Virus record (IMG/VR): IMGVR_UViG_3300032038_000037
Coordinates: 1-64,000 of that record
DNA: 64,000 bases
Source: a virus
Lineage: Duplodnaviria; Caudoviricetes
Strand: one strand, 5' to 3'
The notes beneath the pieces were generated by a model. It was not told where the DNA came from. It saw only the letters and a program-made list of their open reading frames with translations, and did no database searches. Below, one piece after another: positions 18,144 to 22,448 of this stretch (the first letter of the stretch is position 1; each line of letters begins with the position of its first letter). The position numbers and the translations under genes are program-made.

Positions 18144-18341
18144 ATATGACATATCCCTCTAGTAGCCTATAAGATATGTCAAATTGTAGTTTAAGGTCTA
18201 GAGCTACCCTGGACCATAGGACTAATTATCATTAAAACCACCAGAGCGTTTGATATATAAACCTATAGAATATACGGTGGGGCGAAAGCTGTCGCATAAA
18301 CGTGAATATATACCCCCTCTATGGGCGCATTTTAATGATAA

Positions 18342-18414
18342 CGTCCCAAAAAGGATTCGAACCTTTGACACACGGCTTAGAAGGCCGTTGCTCTATCCCC
18401 TGAGCTACTGGGAC
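18342..18414 (-). tRNA. tRNA-Arg(TCT)
   Basis: Cloverleaf; loop CTTCTAA. Confidence 0.95.
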
Positions 18415-18417
18415 AAA

Positions 18418-18493
18418 TAGAGGTGGCGGGATTCGAACCCGCGATCCCGTGATCCCAAATCACGTATCCTAAGCCAAACTAGACCACACCTCT
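18418..18493 (-). tRNA. tRNA-Pro(TGG)
   Basis: Cloverleaf; loop TTTGGGA. Confidence 0.93.
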
Positions 18494-18499
18494 TAGTTA

Positions 18500-18688
18500 T
18501 TACATAAAACGAAAATAAATAAAAGTGGCTATTAAAACTAATAAGTAACTAATCCAAATCGGAGAAAATATCCAACTCCACGCCCAATCAATAACATTAC
18601 TTAATTTTAAAACAATAAAGACTATTGTCAACAAATTTATAAATAATATTCCACCATATGCACACGCAATATATTTGTCATCTTTCAT
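18500..18688 (-). CDS. Small membrane protein (two TM helices, IDWAWSWIFSPIW)
   Basis: Common phage transmembrane motif. Confidence 0.75.
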   Translation of the reverse strand: MKDDKYIACAYGGILFINLLTIVFIVLKLSNVIDWAWSWIFSPIWISYLLVLIATFIYFRFM

Positions 18689-18701
18689 TTCATTTTCCTA
18701 C

Positions 18702-19331
18702 TTACCAATTTACATACATATCAAAATGATTTGGACCTACATATCCACAATCATAACATTTAGCATAACCACCAAAAGGAGTTGCTACAATTACTCTTTT
18801 ATTCTTATTAGCTACACAGCTGCCACAAACAAAATATCCTTCCCCATCACGAACAAATCCTTGTGAATCAATCCACATTCCCGGAACTCGAAGACCAGGC
18901 ATTACTCTGCGCGAGTACCATGTATAATGTTTTCCTTGCCAATTTAAACCACCTGCTCTACGAAAATATGCTCCAGAATATACGGCTTTAATAGGAGGAT
19001 AAGCTTGAAGTGATGCATTTTCACAGAAATAGCACTTGCGATTATACATAACAGCTGACCATTTGTTATTTTGCCAAACTAAACCAAGTTGAGTACCCTG
19101 TTTCACAATAACAATTTTTGTTTTAAAACTTCTAGGATAATCGCGTAAATAAAGTTTATTCCATTTAACATAACGATATTTTGCAATATAAGTTCCATGA
19201 AGTGTTTGTCCATTTCCCATTGTTACTGCAACTTGATTGCCATTAACTTTAACCGCATTGTGCGCTTCTGCAGATAATGGCATTAGCATAATCATAACTG
19301 CTAAAACTATCAAAAAACCTTTTTTAATCAT
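18702..19331 (-). CDS. Secreted SH3-like + 3D-like protein (paralog of 13120-13689)
   Basis: Signal peptide; shared W.G..YT.Y.SR..P..VPG..D..GF..D...Y.V.GS...ATPFG...K.YD.G. Confidence 0.65.
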   Translation of the reverse strand: MIKKGFLIVLAVMIMLMPLSAEAHNAVKVNGNQVAVTMGNGQTLHGTYIAKYRYVKWNKLYLRDYPRSFKTKIVIVKQGTQLGLVWQNNKWSAVMYNRKCYFCENASLQAYPPIKAVYSGAYFRRAGGLNWQGKHYTWYSRRVMPGLRVPGMWIDSQGFVRDGEGYFVCGSCVANKNKRVIVATPFGGYAKCYDCGYVGPNHFDMYVNW

Positions 19332-19549
19332 TCATTATCTCCTCTAATTAAAATTCTTTTTCGTTTTTTGAAAGTCTGACGTTCTTTTGAAATATATTTA
19401 TCTATTTTCTTAGAACATTCAGGACAAAAATATTGCGTGTCATACCATCTTAACACATCGTTATAGTCTGTATTGAGTTTTGATGCTCCACTCTCACCCA
19501 TTTCAATGTGTTTTCCACAAATTGAACAAACAGTATAATTTCTGCCCAT
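19328..19549 (-). CDS. Small zinc-finger protein
   Basis: CSIC...CPEC; RBS favours start MGRNY. Confidence 0.65.
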   Translation of the reverse strand: MGRNYTVCSICGKHIEMGESGASKLNTDYNDVLRWYDTQYFCPECSKKIDKYISKERQTFKKRKRILIRGDNE

Positions 19550-19579
19550 TTTAAACTCCTTTCTTTTTAACGGGTTAAA

Positions 19580-19651
19580 CTGGGGTAATTGGAATTGAAC
19601 CAATATTGTCAGAGTCAAAGTCTGAAGTGCTTACCGTTACACCATACCCCA
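19580..19651 (-). tRNA. tRNA-Gln(TTG)
   Basis: Cloverleaf; loop CTTTGAC; own promoter at about 19695-19730. Confidence 0.93.
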
Positions 19652-19731: not shown

Positions 19732-20550
19732 TTATTTTATTTTAATATATTCAGCCTTAACATATCCTCGTTTAGTTCCCTTCGCACCAGTAATACTAAC
19801 TAAATACCACTTATTCGCACCAGAGCCAACAGTACTAACAATTGTGACTTCTTTACCTTTATTAATTACAGGATATGCACCAATATTATTACCTTTTACT
19901 ACTTTAGGCTGTAACCTTACATTCAAAGCACTGGCAGTAACAACACCCTTTTTACCATTAGAAGTTTTTGTTTTAGCTGATGTTTTAGCAGCAGTGCTTG
20001 CGGTTCTCTTACCAGGAATTTTTGTTACAATCCAAATGTTTGGAAGTCCACCAGCCATAGTTGTTTCATAACAAAACCAACCATCATTATGATAACCGCC
20101 AGAATCCTTTGTATAGAAATAATGTTTTCCATTCTTAACTTGATAGTTTAAAAAAGCTACATAATGTCCACTTGTTGTCCAAGTAACTCCACCGCGCCTA
20201 CCGCCTCGAAGTAATAATACACCCATTCTTGGAGAACCCTTTTTATTCAAAATATCCCAAGCGGGCTTCATAGAACCATTAATATTCGGCCAGCTAACCC
20301 CAAAACCATAATGTTCTAATGTAGCTTTAATTCCTGCCCAAGTTGTTCCATGACCTTTTGTAGCAAAACCTGCATTAACCATATAAGGACGAACATTTTT
20401 TGGAGTATATTTAGCATATTTAGATGACTCAATAATTACATGAGTACATGCACAACATCCACAACCATTACCTGCAAAAGAATAAGCAGAAGTTGGATAA
20501 GGAAGGCGGCCCCATCGTGAATCGCCTTGTCGAAAAATCACACTTTGCAT
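19732..20550 (-). CDS. Putative endolysin: C39-like cysteine peptidase + SH3b
   Basis: Q.DSRW...GCGCCA, GHYV, KDS catalytic pattern; ALNVR SH3b; adjacent to a holin. Confidence 0.75.
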   Translation of the reverse strand: MQSVIFRQGDSRWGRLPYPTSAYSFAGNGCGCCACTHVIIESSKYAKYTPKNVRPYMVNAGFATKGHGTTWAGIKATLEHYGFGVSWPNINGSMKPAWDILNKKGSPRMGVLLLRGGRRGGVTWTTSGHYVAFLNYQVKNGKHYFYTKDSGGYHNDGWFCYETTMAGGLPNIWIVTKIPGKRTASTAAKTSAKTKTSNGKKGVVTASALNVRLQPKVVKGNNIGAYPVINKGKEVTIVSTVGSGANKWYLVSITGAKGTKRGYVKAEYIKIK

Positions 20551-20852
20551 TATTCAATTTCCTCCGGTAATTCATCCTCTTGATTTTCATAAAAATATTC
20601 GCCATTAGCTTTTCCTTTCATTTCAGCTTTTTTGGCTCTCATTTCACCTGTATATTGCGCGGCCACAGAAGTATAATCATTATTATAATAAGTCACACAA
20701 GCTACAATTATAAAATTAAGAATAATAGAAGCAATTTTATAGGCTAAATCTAACTTAGGGTTATTAAAACCAGTAATATCAGTTGCCATTAAAGCTGAAT
20801 TTAAAGAAGTTGCAATAGCTAAAATAGTTCTTAATTTTGTACCAAAATTCAT
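20550..20852 (-). CDS. Putative holin (SPP1-like)
   Basis: GTKLRTIL...TM...YYNNDYT pattern; directly upstream of the lysin. Confidence 0.7.
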   Translation of the reverse strand: MNFGTKLRTILAIATSLNSALMATDITGFNNPKLDLAYKIASIILNFIIVACVTYYNNDYTSVAAQYTGEMRAKKAEMKGKANGEYFYENQEDELPEEIE

Positions 20853-20950
20853 AACAAAACCTCCTTTTACATATTAGAATTAGGGTATTCCTATCTATAT
20901 AAAAGTAGATTTTTAATTAAGAAAATATATATTATTAAGTTTTACTAATT

Positions 20951-21418
20951 TTATTTAAGACAATCTTCAATAATGCGCGCCTTTTGAAGTGAATCATATT
21001 CTTCAAAACTTTTCCATTTCTCATAATAATGATAGCCTTCTGTAGAAACCACTCCAGACCAATCATAATTGATTTTATCTAATTGAAAAACAAAATGTCC
21101 TACAATTGTGTCATAATAAATTTCACCTGCTGGAAATCTGTCTTTTAAAATTAAAGCAAAATAATAACAATTACCAGTAAGCCAATCACAATCTTTTGAA
21201 AATCTTCGACTAATAAAATCTAAAACTTCACCATTACTTTTTCCAATAATTTTCCAATCGTCACTGAAGAACAAAACTTCTTCTCCCCATGTTCCATGAA
21301 TTCGTTTTCCTTCATCAATGAATTTAACCACACCGTCTTTTCCATTGTTTCGTATTCCAGAAAACATATGATTAATATGAATTATATCACCAGCTTCAAC
21401 CTGTTCTTTTGGTTTCAT
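20951..21418 (-). CDS. Hypothetical two-domain protein (GNCYYFA...GHF)
   Basis: ORF with GGAGG RBS; possible Cys-His-Asp triad. Confidence 0.7.
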   Translation of the reverse strand: MKPKEQVEAGDIIHINHMFSGIRNNGKDGVVKFIDEGKRIHGTWGEEVLFFSDDWKIIGKSNGEVLDFISRRFSKDCDWLTGNCYYFALILKDRFPAGEIYYDTIVGHFVFQLDKINYDWSGVVSTEGYHYYEKWKSFEEYDSLQKARIIEDCLK

Positions 21419-21451
21419 TTTAAATACCAGTCCTCCTTATTAGTCTGTGAA

Positions 21452-21523
21452 TCGGCATACCGAGAATCGAACTCGGATCACTGGCTTATAAGGCCAGCGC
21501 ACTCACCGTTGTGCTATATGCCA
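21452..21523 (-). tRNA. tRNA-Ile(TAT)
   Basis: Cloverleaf; CTGGC-CTTATAA-GCCAG. Confidence 0.9.
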
Positions 21524-21704
21524 AACTTTTTCTATATAAAAATAAAGCATGGAAAGTTGAAGCCTCTGCAGCGGCCCAGTCCTTAGGCTCCATGCTAACC
21601 ATAGACTGTAACATTTATCCGATATGCTAAACGGTAGGCTTATATCGGCAGCCTAAACCGAATCCCATTATATGTGACAACGTAGGATTGATATTGTCAC
21701 ACAG

Positions 21705-21788
21705 TACCGCTGACCGGAGTCGAACCGGTATGCCGATCAGGGCCACGGATTTTAAGTCCGTTATGTCTACCTATTCCATCACAGCGGC
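21705..21788 (-). tRNA. tRNA-Leu(TAA)
   Basis: Cloverleaf with variable arm; loop CTTAAAA. Confidence 0.95.
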
Positions 21789-22011
21789 AAATCTTAAAAA
21801 ATAGGCGGTGCCACTGAACAGCACCGCCTGACTGTCTGTAAAGTTCATTGAATTATTAATAAGTTACTAAACTATTAAATTGTAAAACTCAATTGCCCAT
21901 TGGACCATACCTCATATTGCAGAACTTTACTACTTCTATTTTAAAAGGTCTTTTGACCTTACAAATAAATTATAGCAAAAATTTTTAAAATTGTCAAATT
22001 TTCGCTATTAA

Positions 22012-22080
22012 AGAGGTTTTGTTTATCGGTGCGCCACAAGTTCCTCAAAACTCCCGTGTTTTAGAGTCTTTAGCTTTGAC
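22012..22080 (-). repeat. Unknown RNA motif, copy 1
   Basis: Shares GTCAAAG..AAGACTCTAAAAC.CGGG.GTTT...TGTGGCGCACCG.TAAA with 23661-23731. Confidence 0.7.
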
Positions 22081-22448
22081 TGGGGTTACTTTGCGTCTTT
22101 ATATACCGTTTCCCACTAAGCCACATATCGGATTACTGTACAGGCAAGCCTGAGGTTCCGCCAGTGGTAGTTGACCCCAAATCCATGATAACGGTTCTAG
22201 GGTTTTCTTTTTAAGAGTGAAAGCTATGATTTAAAATCTCTCTTGACCTAGTTTAGACCAGGAGGTCTATCCTGCGGTTTAACTTATACTTTTAAAAGGC
22301 GGTTTCCCCTCCGCGAAATGAGATTTAAAATCTCTCTGTTGACGTCAATAGAAAGTTGCCTTATATTATAGACTAGTCAACTTACAATGGAAAGTCTATA
22401 TGTCCCAATATTGACCAGGCGGGACTCCATTCGGGCCTGGGGTACCAA

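What the first reader, a model, noticed from the sequence alone, without database searches (positions are those of the whole stretch)
18185..22440. Series of compact H-type pseudoknots in tRNA spacers (type III antitoxin mimics?)
Five 30-48 nt units have a stem whose loop pairs with a 3' tail: 18185-18215 (GTAG/CTAC), 21619-21660 (CCGATAT/ATATCGG), 21661-21701 (AATCCT/GGGATT), 22353-22400 (AAGTTG/CAACTT) and 22402-22440 (GTCCC/GGGAC). Two pairs are back-to-back. Size and topology resemble ToxI/CptI/AbiQ antitoxin RNAs, and phage pseudo-ToxI mimicry is established. A sequence-diverse set could neutralise several toxins; exonuclease roadblocks are the alternative.
Basis: partly seen in the sequence, partly recalled or inferred. 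Interest (0 to 1): 0.7.

Follow-up and report, generated by a model that had tools for sequence, protein, structure and literature searches.

The report
Structured RNA knots in phage tRNA spacers
The spacers of this rumen phage's tRNA operon hold small, conserved folded RNAs, one of which closely matches a plant-virus element that stops RNA-degrading enzymes; they look like protective or processing caps for the tRNA transcripts, not antitoxin mimics, and this is untested.

Summary
All five interleaved pairings exist, on the transcribed minus strand of a phage tRNA operon. Four of them form two back-to-back pairs directly 3' of tRNA-Asn and tRNA-Leu. Such pairs almost never arise in shuffles. 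They are 85-93% identical in the only relative found, where near-neutral sites are 57% identical. Their hairpin stems show compensatory or wobble changes.

The knot-forming second stems are only invariant, and unit 21619-21660 erodes in the relative. So a pseudoknot is proven for none and is likely for two or three.

The weakest unit (18185-18215) matches 12 of 13 letters of the plant-virus 'coremin' exonuclease-blocking pseudoknot. It has the right stem, A-rich linker, loop-tail pairing and following hairpin, and it lies directly 5' of tRNA-Glu. This scan has noted coremin-like knots in phages and giant viruses before, on other DNA.

No unit is a tandem repeat. The units are not repeats of one another; at most PK5 and PK3 are weakly alike. 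None resembles CptI or any Rfam family, or fits the theta (HDV-like) ribozyme motif. Type III antitoxin mimicry is therefore unsupported. The feature is real and modestly novel.

The parts
18186..18215 (-). Unit 1: coremin-like mini-pseudoknot. Stem 1 is 18215-18212 with 18198-18195. The loop is 13 nt, and its GUAG (18207-18204) pairs with CUAC (18189-18186). The linker UUAAA is 18194-18190.
   Evidence: The sequence is. The pattern GACNTTAAACTAC occurs once in 64 kb on both strands and at the same place in L002. The coremin sequence and model come from PMC10520033 and PMC10321173. A structure-aware scan finds this as the only copy in the 99-kb genome that is not low-complexity.
18148..18180 (-). 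Hairpin following unit 1 (hp2-like): an 8-bp stem, 18180-18173 with 18155-18148, and a 17-nt loop. It ends 4 nt before tRNA-Glu (18143).
   Evidence: Fold z = -3.2 for 18144-18225. It is kept in L002, where one C-to-U change gives a G-U pair.
22402..22440 (-). PK5: stem 1 is 22440-22435 with 22420-22415. Stem 2 is 22425-22421 with 22406-22402. It starts 8 nt after the tRNA-Asn discriminator (22449).
   Evidence: Stem 1 has a C-G to U-A double change in L002, and stem 2 is invariant. The GGGA of stem 2 can alternatively pair with the tRNA's 3' acceptor strand.
22353..22400 (-). PK4: stem 1 is 22400-22393 with 22374-22367. Stem 2 is 22383-22378 with 22358-22353. It lies 1 nt after PK5.
   Evidence: Stem 1 has a U-A to C-G double change. 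Stem 2 has an A-U to C-G change at the edge of homology. A possible loop-loop helix with PK5 (22431-22426 with 22391-22386) is kept in L002.
21661..21701 (-). PK3: stem 1 is 21701-21694 with 21680-21673 and can extend to 11 bp. Stem 2 is 21689-21684 with 21666-21661. It starts 3 nt after the tRNA-Leu discriminator.
   Evidence: Three one-sided wobble changes keep stem 1 paired. Stem 2 is invariant. The hairpin fold has z = -2.1.
21619..21660 (-). PK2: stem 1 is 21655-21650 with 21640-21635. Stem 2 is 21648-21642 with 21625-21619. This is a candidate only.
   Evidence: There is no covariation. L002 has a 1-nt deletion in stem 1 and a broken terminal pair in stem 2. RNAalifold prefers nested alternatives. 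The PK3+PK2 stretch is still 93% identical.
21577..21608 (-). Conserved hairpin after PK2: outer helix 21608-21603 with 21582-21577, inner helix 21600-21597 with 21589-21586.
   Evidence: The outer helix has two adjacent double compensatory changes. The inner helix has three one-sided pair-keeping changes.
22448..22521 (-). tRNA-Asn(GUU), whose 3' trailer begins with PK5 and PK4.
   Evidence: A second relative, L039, has the same tRNA without PK5/PK4.
21704..21788 (-). tRNA-Leu(UAA), whose 3' trailer holds PK3, PK2 and the conserved hairpin.
   Evidence: It has its own consensus promoter at 21997-21969.

Best explanation
These are cis-acting folded modules of a polycistronic phage tRNA/ncRNA transcript, read from the minus strand. 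Each is a compact hairpin-type pseudoknot followed at once by a second hairpin. Each sits at a processing boundary. Unit 1 lies directly 5' of tRNA-Glu; in the relative it fills the whole Arg-Glu spacer. PK5/PK4 and PK3/PK2 lie 8 and 3 nt behind the points where RNase Z should cut off tRNA-Asn and tRNA-Leu.

The most likely job is mechanical. They would cap the new 5' end and stop a 5'-to-3' exonuclease, RNase J in a Firmicute host. That would define and stabilise the RNA piece behind them, as coremin-type and other xrRNAs do for plant and animal RNA viruses.

Shown here: the position, the transcribed strand, strong purifying selection, the hairpin stems, and the coremin-like core of unit 1. 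Inferred: formation of the second stems, RNase Z cleavage at these sites, the host's nuclease, and the blocking itself.
For: -
- The modules are selected. They are 85-96% identical to L002, while lysin third codon positions are 57% identical and the tRNAs 75-97%.
- Stem 1 of PK5 and of PK4 shows compensatory changes, with 0 of 25 pairs broken (P about 1e-5).
- The wobble changes in PK3 stem 1 fit only minus-strand RNA.
- Paired knots are rare in shuffles and unique among about 60 trailers.
- Unit 1 matches 12 of 13 letters of the 3' part of the coremin motif. The single difference is compensated in the stem. Unit 1 also has the loop-tail pairing of the Watson-Crick coremin variant and a downstream hairpin.
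- Small pseudoknot xrRNAs block bacterial RNase J1 in vitro (10.1101/262683).
- The promoters are sigma-70 consensus with an extended -10 box, as in Firmicutes.
- Another spacer RNA here (after tRNA-Arg) and several spacers of the distant relative L042 also bury their first nucleotides in a helix.
Against: - There are no expression, end-mapping or nuclease data, and the host is unknown.
- PK2-PK5 lack the coremin core sequence.
- Ordinary H-type frameshift pseudoknots do not stall Xrn1 (PMC10321173), so topology alone predicts nothing.
- The second stems have no real covariation.
- PK3's 11-bp stem 1 leaves only 4 nt to cross it.
- PK2 erodes in L002.
- Unit 1 has a 13-nt loop instead of the required YGAD/YGNNAD loop, and its hairpin 2 is 4-5 nt away, not 1 nt.
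- The loops are conserved too, which fits a binding partner as well as a tertiary fold.
- L039 lacks PK5/PK4 behind the same tRNA.
- A folded tRNA needs no shield.
Confidence: 0.4

Rival explanations
1. The trailers are trans-acting stable RNAs, or domains of longer ones, whose conserved loops and knots bind a conserved protein or RNA partner. That would make them decoys, sponges or scaffolds other than type III antitoxins.
For: Unpaired parts are conserved far above the neutral level, and PK3+PK2 (93%) is more conserved than its own tRNA-Leu (83%). The conserved parts of the two long L1 loops are complementary to each other. A downstream 7-mer (21575-21569) copies the tRNA-Leu 5' acceptor strand and tracks its change in L002. 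The same island holds ROOL, a mini-tmRNA and a twister ribozyme.
Against: No partner is known and no family matches. PK5/PK4 is dispensable in L039. The position right at the cleavage sites is not explained.
Confidence: 0.25
2. Only the plain hairpins are real, acting as processing or stabilising stems of an operon spacer. The loop-tail pairings would then be by-products of conserved sequence.
For: All firm covariation lies in first stems. Nested alternatives exist for PK2 and for the 3' strand of PK5 stem 2. MFE folds of the single units are mostly unremarkable without the knots.
Against: The second-stem strands are invariant, 0 of 20 columns changed against 8 of 39 loop columns in the Asn module (Fisher P = 0.04). 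Two strong non-overlapping knots per trailer arise in at most 0.05% of shuffles. Unit 1 reproduces a motif for which a pseudoknot is experimentally supported.
Confidence: 0.2
3. The units are phage mimics of host type III antitoxin RNAs (ToxI/CptI/TenpI-like) that neutralise abortive-infection endoribonucleases.
For: The size (39-48 nt) and H-type topology are like CptI, a 45-nt H-type pseudoknot with a 1-nt L1 (PMC4627078). PK2 has the same architecture and shares a 7-mer with CptI. Pseudo-ToxI escape is documented (PMC5086642).
Against: There are no tandem repeats, and the units are unlike one another. Similarity to CptI is not significant, since 8% of shuffles score as well. No Rfam match. 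The known mimic is a repeat closely similar to the host antitoxin. The placement at tRNA ends is unexplained.
Confidence: 0.04
4. The units are small self-cleaving ribozymes that cut the transcript at tRNA 3' ends, like theta (minimal HDV-like) ribozymes of gut phages.
For: The context is the same as theta ribozymes, which cleave within 5 nt of phage tRNA 3' ends (PMC10879173). PK3 starts with a G that can pair with U in a 6-7-bp helix. A twister ribozyme lies in the same array.
Against: A motif scan built from the published theta examples finds no strict hit in five related records, and the relaxed hits are spurious. There is no room for P3/L3 between the strands. No HDV, pistol, hatchet or twister match at the units.
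Confidence: 0.04

Closest known systems
Coremin motif (xrRNA-C) and its Watson-Crick variant xrRNA-WCC of plant, fungal and insect RNA viruses (Dilweg et al., PMC6546385, PMC10520033, PMC10321173)
   Same: Unit 1 has the same 3 top pairs of hairpin 1. It has the same 9-nt linker and tail (UUAAACUAC), a loop segment that pairs with the tail, and a stable hairpin downstream. PK5-PK4 and PK3-PK2 share only the layout, a knot followed at once by a hairpin.
   Different: This is a DNA phage of a bacterium, not an RNA virus of a eukaryote, so there is no Xrn1. The loop is 13 nt instead of YGAD/YGNNAD or a 4-nt pairing loop. L1 is 4 nt, not 1 nt. Hairpin 2 is 4-5 nt away. It sits in front of a tRNA, not in a 3' UTR. 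PK2-PK5 have longer stems and none of the core sequence.
Dianthovirus and flavivirus xrRNAs (Steckelberg et al., 10.1101/262683)
   Same: They are compact (about 44 nt), and loop-tail pseudoknots are essential for them. They act as general mechanical blocks, including against bacterial RNase J1 in vitro.
   Different: Their block depends on a ring around the 5' end, shown by structures. No such evidence exists here, and there is no sequence similarity.
Theta ribozymes (tRNA-associated minimal HDV-like ribozymes of gut Caudoviricetes; Kienbeck et al., PMC10879173)
   Same: They are small pseudoknotted RNAs placed directly at the 3' end of phage tRNAs lacking an encoded CCA, and they take part in tRNA 3' maturation.
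   Different: The defining nested double pseudoknot with P3/L3, P1.1 and the catalytic C is absent.
Type III antitoxin RNAs (ToxI, CptI, TenpI, antiQ) and phage pseudo-ToxI
   Same: They are H-type pseudoknots of 34-45 nt. PK2 resembles CptI in its loop lengths.
   Different: Antitoxins are tandem arrays of one repeat, followed by a terminator and a toxin gene, and they are cut by the toxin. Here there are single, unlike units in tRNA trailers.
Functional tRNA spacers and co-transcribed small RNAs (E. coli 3'ETS-leuZ sponge; T4 stable RNAs C and D in the tRNA cluster), cited from my own knowledge
   Same: They are non-tRNA RNAs released from tRNA precursors by the tRNA-processing enzymes.
   Different: There is no sequence or structural relation. 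Those act, where known, by base-pairing with sRNAs.

Membership tests
Type III antitoxin RNA (ToxI/CptI/TenpI) or phage pseudo-ToxI | Tandem array of near-identical 34-45-nt direct repeats | tested here: not met
   Tandem Repeats Finder finds nothing at the units. The five units are not repeats of one another (best pair z about 3).
Type III antitoxin RNA (ToxI/CptI/TenpI) or phage pseudo-ToxI | Repeats followed by a terminator and a ToxN/CptN/TenpN-type toxin gene (not required of a mimic) | tested here: not met
   No ToxN_toxin (PF13958) match in the 99-kb phage record at E<=1. CptN and TenpN families were not searched. The flanks are tRNAs.
Type III antitoxin RNA (ToxI/CptI/TenpI) or phage pseudo-ToxI | Sequence similarity to a known or host antitoxin repeat | tested here: inconclusive
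   No Rfam family at E<=10. Against CptI of E. rectale the best unit (PK2) is matched by 8% of shuffles. The host and its antitoxins are unknown.
Type III antitoxin RNA (ToxI/CptI/TenpI) or phage pseudo-ToxI | Neutralises the cognate toxin | not testable with these tools
   This needs a toxin-rescue assay.
Coremin-type xrRNA (xrRNA-C / xrRNA-WCC), for unit 1 only | Hairpin 1 with a 3-5-bp stem (GUC/GAC core) | tested here: met
   The stem is GGUC/GACC. The top three pairs are identical to coremin and the fourth pair is flipped on both sides.
Coremin-type xrRNA (xrRNA-C / xrRNA-WCC), for unit 1 only | Hairpin-1 loop YGAD or YGNNAD; in the WC variant, a 4-nt loop whose nt 6-8 pair with spacer nt 18-20 | tested here: not met
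   The loop is 13 nt and fits neither consensus. It does contain GUAG, complementary to the CUAC tail (4 Watson-Crick pairs). L1 is 4 nt, and the pairing is invariant in L002, so there is no covariation.
Coremin-type xrRNA (xrRNA-C / xrRNA-WCC), for unit 1 only | Conserved 10-nt spacer after hairpin 1 | tested here: met
   UUAAACUAC is identical in 9 of 9 positions. The exact 12-base pattern occurs once in 128 kb searched, where about 0.008 is expected.
Coremin-type xrRNA (xrRNA-C / xrRNA-WCC), for unit 1 only | Stable hairpin 2 (at least 4 bp) directly downstream | tested here: inconclusive
   An 8-bp hairpin follows, but after 4-5 nt instead of 1 nt.
Coremin-type xrRNA (xrRNA-C / xrRNA-WCC), for unit 1 only | Stalls a 5'-3' exonuclease | not testable with these tools
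   This needs RNase J1/Xrn1 digestion of 5'-monophosphate transcripts.
Theta / minimal HDV-like ribozyme | Nested double pseudoknot P1-P2-P3-P1.1 with a 7-nt L3, GG after P1 and a catalytic C opening J4/2 | tested here: not met
   A descriptor-style scan built from the published examples gives no strict hit in G000, L002, L039, L042 or L043. None of the relaxed hits lies at the units.
Any Rfam 15 family (riboswitch pseudoknots, ribozymes, ToxI and others) | Covariance-model match | tested here: not met
   Only tRNAs match in and around the units, both at E<=1 over 11 kb and at E<=10 over 941 nt.

The most novel reading that the evidence does not exclude
The knot-plus-hairpin modules, the coremin-like one before tRNA-Glu and the two larger pairs behind tRNA-Asn and tRNA-Leu, are true exoribonuclease-resistant RNAs of a bacteriophage. 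They would stall RNase J at RNase Z-made 5' ends and so create stable trailer RNAs. That would carry the xrRNA principle from eukaryotic RNA viruses to DNA phages and bacterial RNA decay.
Probability: 0.15. Interest if true: 0.75.

Novelty: new variant of a known kind. Interest (0 to 1): 0.42.

Why it matters
Phage tRNA islands are known to carry large enigmatic RNAs such as ROOL and GOLLD, but their small spacers are usually ignored. Here the spacers are under stronger selection than some of the tRNAs. One of them carries the core of a motif so far published only for RNA viruses of eukaryotes. I found no paper in the held library that links coremin to phages.

If these elements block RNase J, several things would follow.
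- They would show how phages shape the processing and lifetime of their tRNA transcripts.
- They would give a bacterial system for studying mechanical RNA roadblocks.
- They would offer compact stabilisers for engineered RNAs in Gram-positive bacteria.

If they do not, the report still removes an attractive but unsupported counter-defence story.

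Tried and rejected
- Relatives. Exact and gapped motifs of the knots, the tRNA-Asn 3' end, a neighbouring conserved ncRNA and two proteins gave only three useful relatives. L002 (= L033) has all units. L039 has tRNA-Asn without PK5/PK4. L042 and L043 are distant arrays without the units.
- GenBank phages gave only tRNA hits or nothing.
- A small ORF across PK5/PK4 is rejected, because its frame is broken by an indel in L002.
- DNA-level inverted repeats are rejected, because the pair-keeping changes in PK3 are G-U pairs on one strand only.
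- Generality of knots behind every tRNA is rejected.
- Homology of PK5 with PK3 is suggestive (z = 3), but the registers differ, so I did not pursue it.
- My first long-hairpin model after PK2 is replaced by the better-supported helix 21608-21577.
- A hand-made HDV-like parse of PK3 fails for lack of P3/P2 room and failed the scan.

Full report
CONTEXT. The window is the first 64 kb of a 99-kb uncultured phage record. Fourteen tRNA genes between 17.0 and 25.4 kb all lie on the minus strand. The same island holds a ROOL RNA, a mini-tmRNA-like element and a twister-P1 ribozyme match below its Rfam gathering cut-off (56 vs 67 bits, E 9e-11).

On that strand:
- PK5 (22440-22402) and PK4 (22400-22353) follow tRNA-Asn after 8 nt.
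- PK3 (21701-21661) and PK2 (21660-21619) follow tRNA-Leu after 3 nt.
- Unit 1 (18215-18186) lies 42 nt before tRNA-Glu.

A perfect sigma-70 promoter with an extended -10 box (21997-21969, minus strand) heads the tRNA-Leu unit. The same promoter sequence recurs many times in a distant relative.

RELATIVES. Only one contig holds the units: L002, identical to L033. It has a syntenic array and a lysin that is 78% identical. A second contig, L039, has the same tRNA-Asn followed directly by the next module, without PK5/PK4. The modules are therefore shuffled and individually dispensable. Two more distant phages (L042, L043) share only a neighbouring conserved ncRNA.

SELECTION. Between the window and L002, lysin third codon positions are 57% identical. 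By comparison:
- PK5+PK4 are 85% identical.
- PK3+PK2 are 93% identical, above the 83% of tRNA-Leu itself.
- The element before tRNA-Glu is 96% identical.
These spacers are functional RNA, not filler.

STRUCTURE. In PK5+PK4, all 25 proposed pairs are kept in both genomes. All six stem substitutions form three compensated pairs. Random substitution does this in about 1 of 100,000 trials. Two of the three lie in first stems. The third, in PK4 stem 2, lies at the border where homology ends, so it counts for less.

PK3's first stem extends to 11 bp and has three one-sided changes that all keep pairing through G-U. This works only for minus-strand RNA. An 11-bp stem leaves 4 nt to cross it, which strains the knot. 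PK2 gains nothing: L002 has a deletion and a broken pair, and RNAalifold prefers nested helices.

Second-stem strands are invariant, 0 of 20 columns changed against 8 of 39 loop columns (P = 0.04). That is compatible with pairing but is not proof. The conserved cores of the two 9-nt L1 loops are complementary to each other and remain so in L002. PK5+PK4 may therefore be one compact domain. After PK2 comes a hairpin (21608-21577) with two double compensatory changes.

UNIT 1. On its own it is weak: 4+4 bp and the lowest stacking energy. A lead from earlier notes of this scan made me compare it with the coremin motif. The published 20-nt sequence and pseudoknot model are in PMC10520033 and PMC10321173.

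The comparison shows the following.
- Unit 1 has the same three top pairs of hairpin 1.
- Its fourth pair is flipped on both sides.
- It has the identical linker and tail, UUAAACUAC.
- A loop segment, GUAG, is complementary to the tail.
- An 8-bp hairpin follows.

The 12-base core pattern occurs once in the window on the right strand, at the orthologous place in L002, and nowhere else in the 99-kb genome in non-trivial form. It fails the loop consensus, having 13 nt rather than YGAD/YGNNAD. Its hairpin 2 is 4-5 nt away. I therefore call it coremin-like, not a member.

WHAT IT IS NOT.
- It is not a tandem repeat, and there is no ToxN gene in the phage.
- It matches no Rfam family, even at E<=10.
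- It has no significant similarity to the CptI repeat of E. rectale. The defining layout of type III loci, a repeat array followed by a terminator and a toxin gene (PMC5086642), is absent.
- The theta-ribozyme motif, taken from the published examples, has no strict hit in any of the five records.

MECHANISM. The common layout is a knot followed within 0-5 nt by a hairpin, placed at the 5' edge of the piece left after tRNA 3' processing. This is the layout of coremin-type roadblocks. Small pseudoknot xrRNAs stop bacterial RNase J1 in vitro. I therefore favour 5'-end capping and exonuclease blocking, with confidence 0.4.

Several points count against it. Plain frameshift knots do not stall Xrn1. 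The loops are conserved as if they bound a partner. L039 does without PK5/PK4. Nothing has been measured. Partner-binding stable RNAs (0.25) and plain hairpins (0.2) are the main rivals. Antitoxin mimicry and self-cleavage are each at about 0.04.

NOVELTY. I found no paper in the held library that links coremin or xrRNAs to phages. This scan has reported coremin-like knots in other phages and giant viruses before, so unit 1 is a further, variant instance. PK2-PK5 are orphan modules known from two contigs.

Noticed in passing
window 21969-21997 (-): A perfect TTGACA-17-TATAAT promoter with a TG extension heads the tRNA-Leu unit. Similar sequences recur at more than ten places in the distant phage G001 (L043), so this is probably the phage group's promoter consensus.
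   Followed up: partly
window 21803-21829 (-): A terminator-like hairpin with a U-run lies only about 15 nt before tRNA-Leu, after a conserved leader of about 140 nt. L002 keeps the leader (87%) but not the U-run. It could be an attenuator or a separate small RNA.
   Followed up: no
window 21569-21575 (-): A 7-mer identical to the 5' acceptor strand of tRNA-Leu lies about 130 nt downstream. In L002 both the acceptor stem and this copy have changed so that pairing with the 3' acceptor strand is kept (one double and two one-sided changes).
   Followed up: partly
window 22010-22230 (-); L002 2180-2371; L039 1545-1665; L042 8279-8367; L043: An ncRNA of about 190 nt with no Rfam match is the most widely shared element of these arrays. 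It is 91% identical to L002, and a 19-mer from it is exact in four phage contigs.
   Followed up: partly
window 22310-22447 versus L039 1325-1330: PK5, PK4 and two short DNA palindromes are present in the window but absent from L039 behind the same tRNA-Asn. A 16-nt direct repeat (22338-22323 and 22245-22230) marks a likely recombination joint.
   Followed up: partly
window 18222-18340 (-): A 119-nt rod-like RNA module directly behind tRNA-Arg is closed by a 12-bp helix that starts at the first trailer nucleotide (z = -2.5). L002 lacks it; there the coremin-like element follows tRNA-Arg at once.
   Followed up: partly
L042 6480-7800 (-): Four spacers of this distant array start with a closing stem followed by the motif ACAGCAA. 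One of them contains a T-arm-like hairpin. This looks like a family of tRNA-like spacer RNAs.
   Followed up: no
L042 6561-6636 and L043 4917-4993: The distant relatives carry tRNAs with anticodon CUA (amber suppressors), and L042 carries a full tmRNA with a tag. The window's phage has neither within the window.
   Followed up: no
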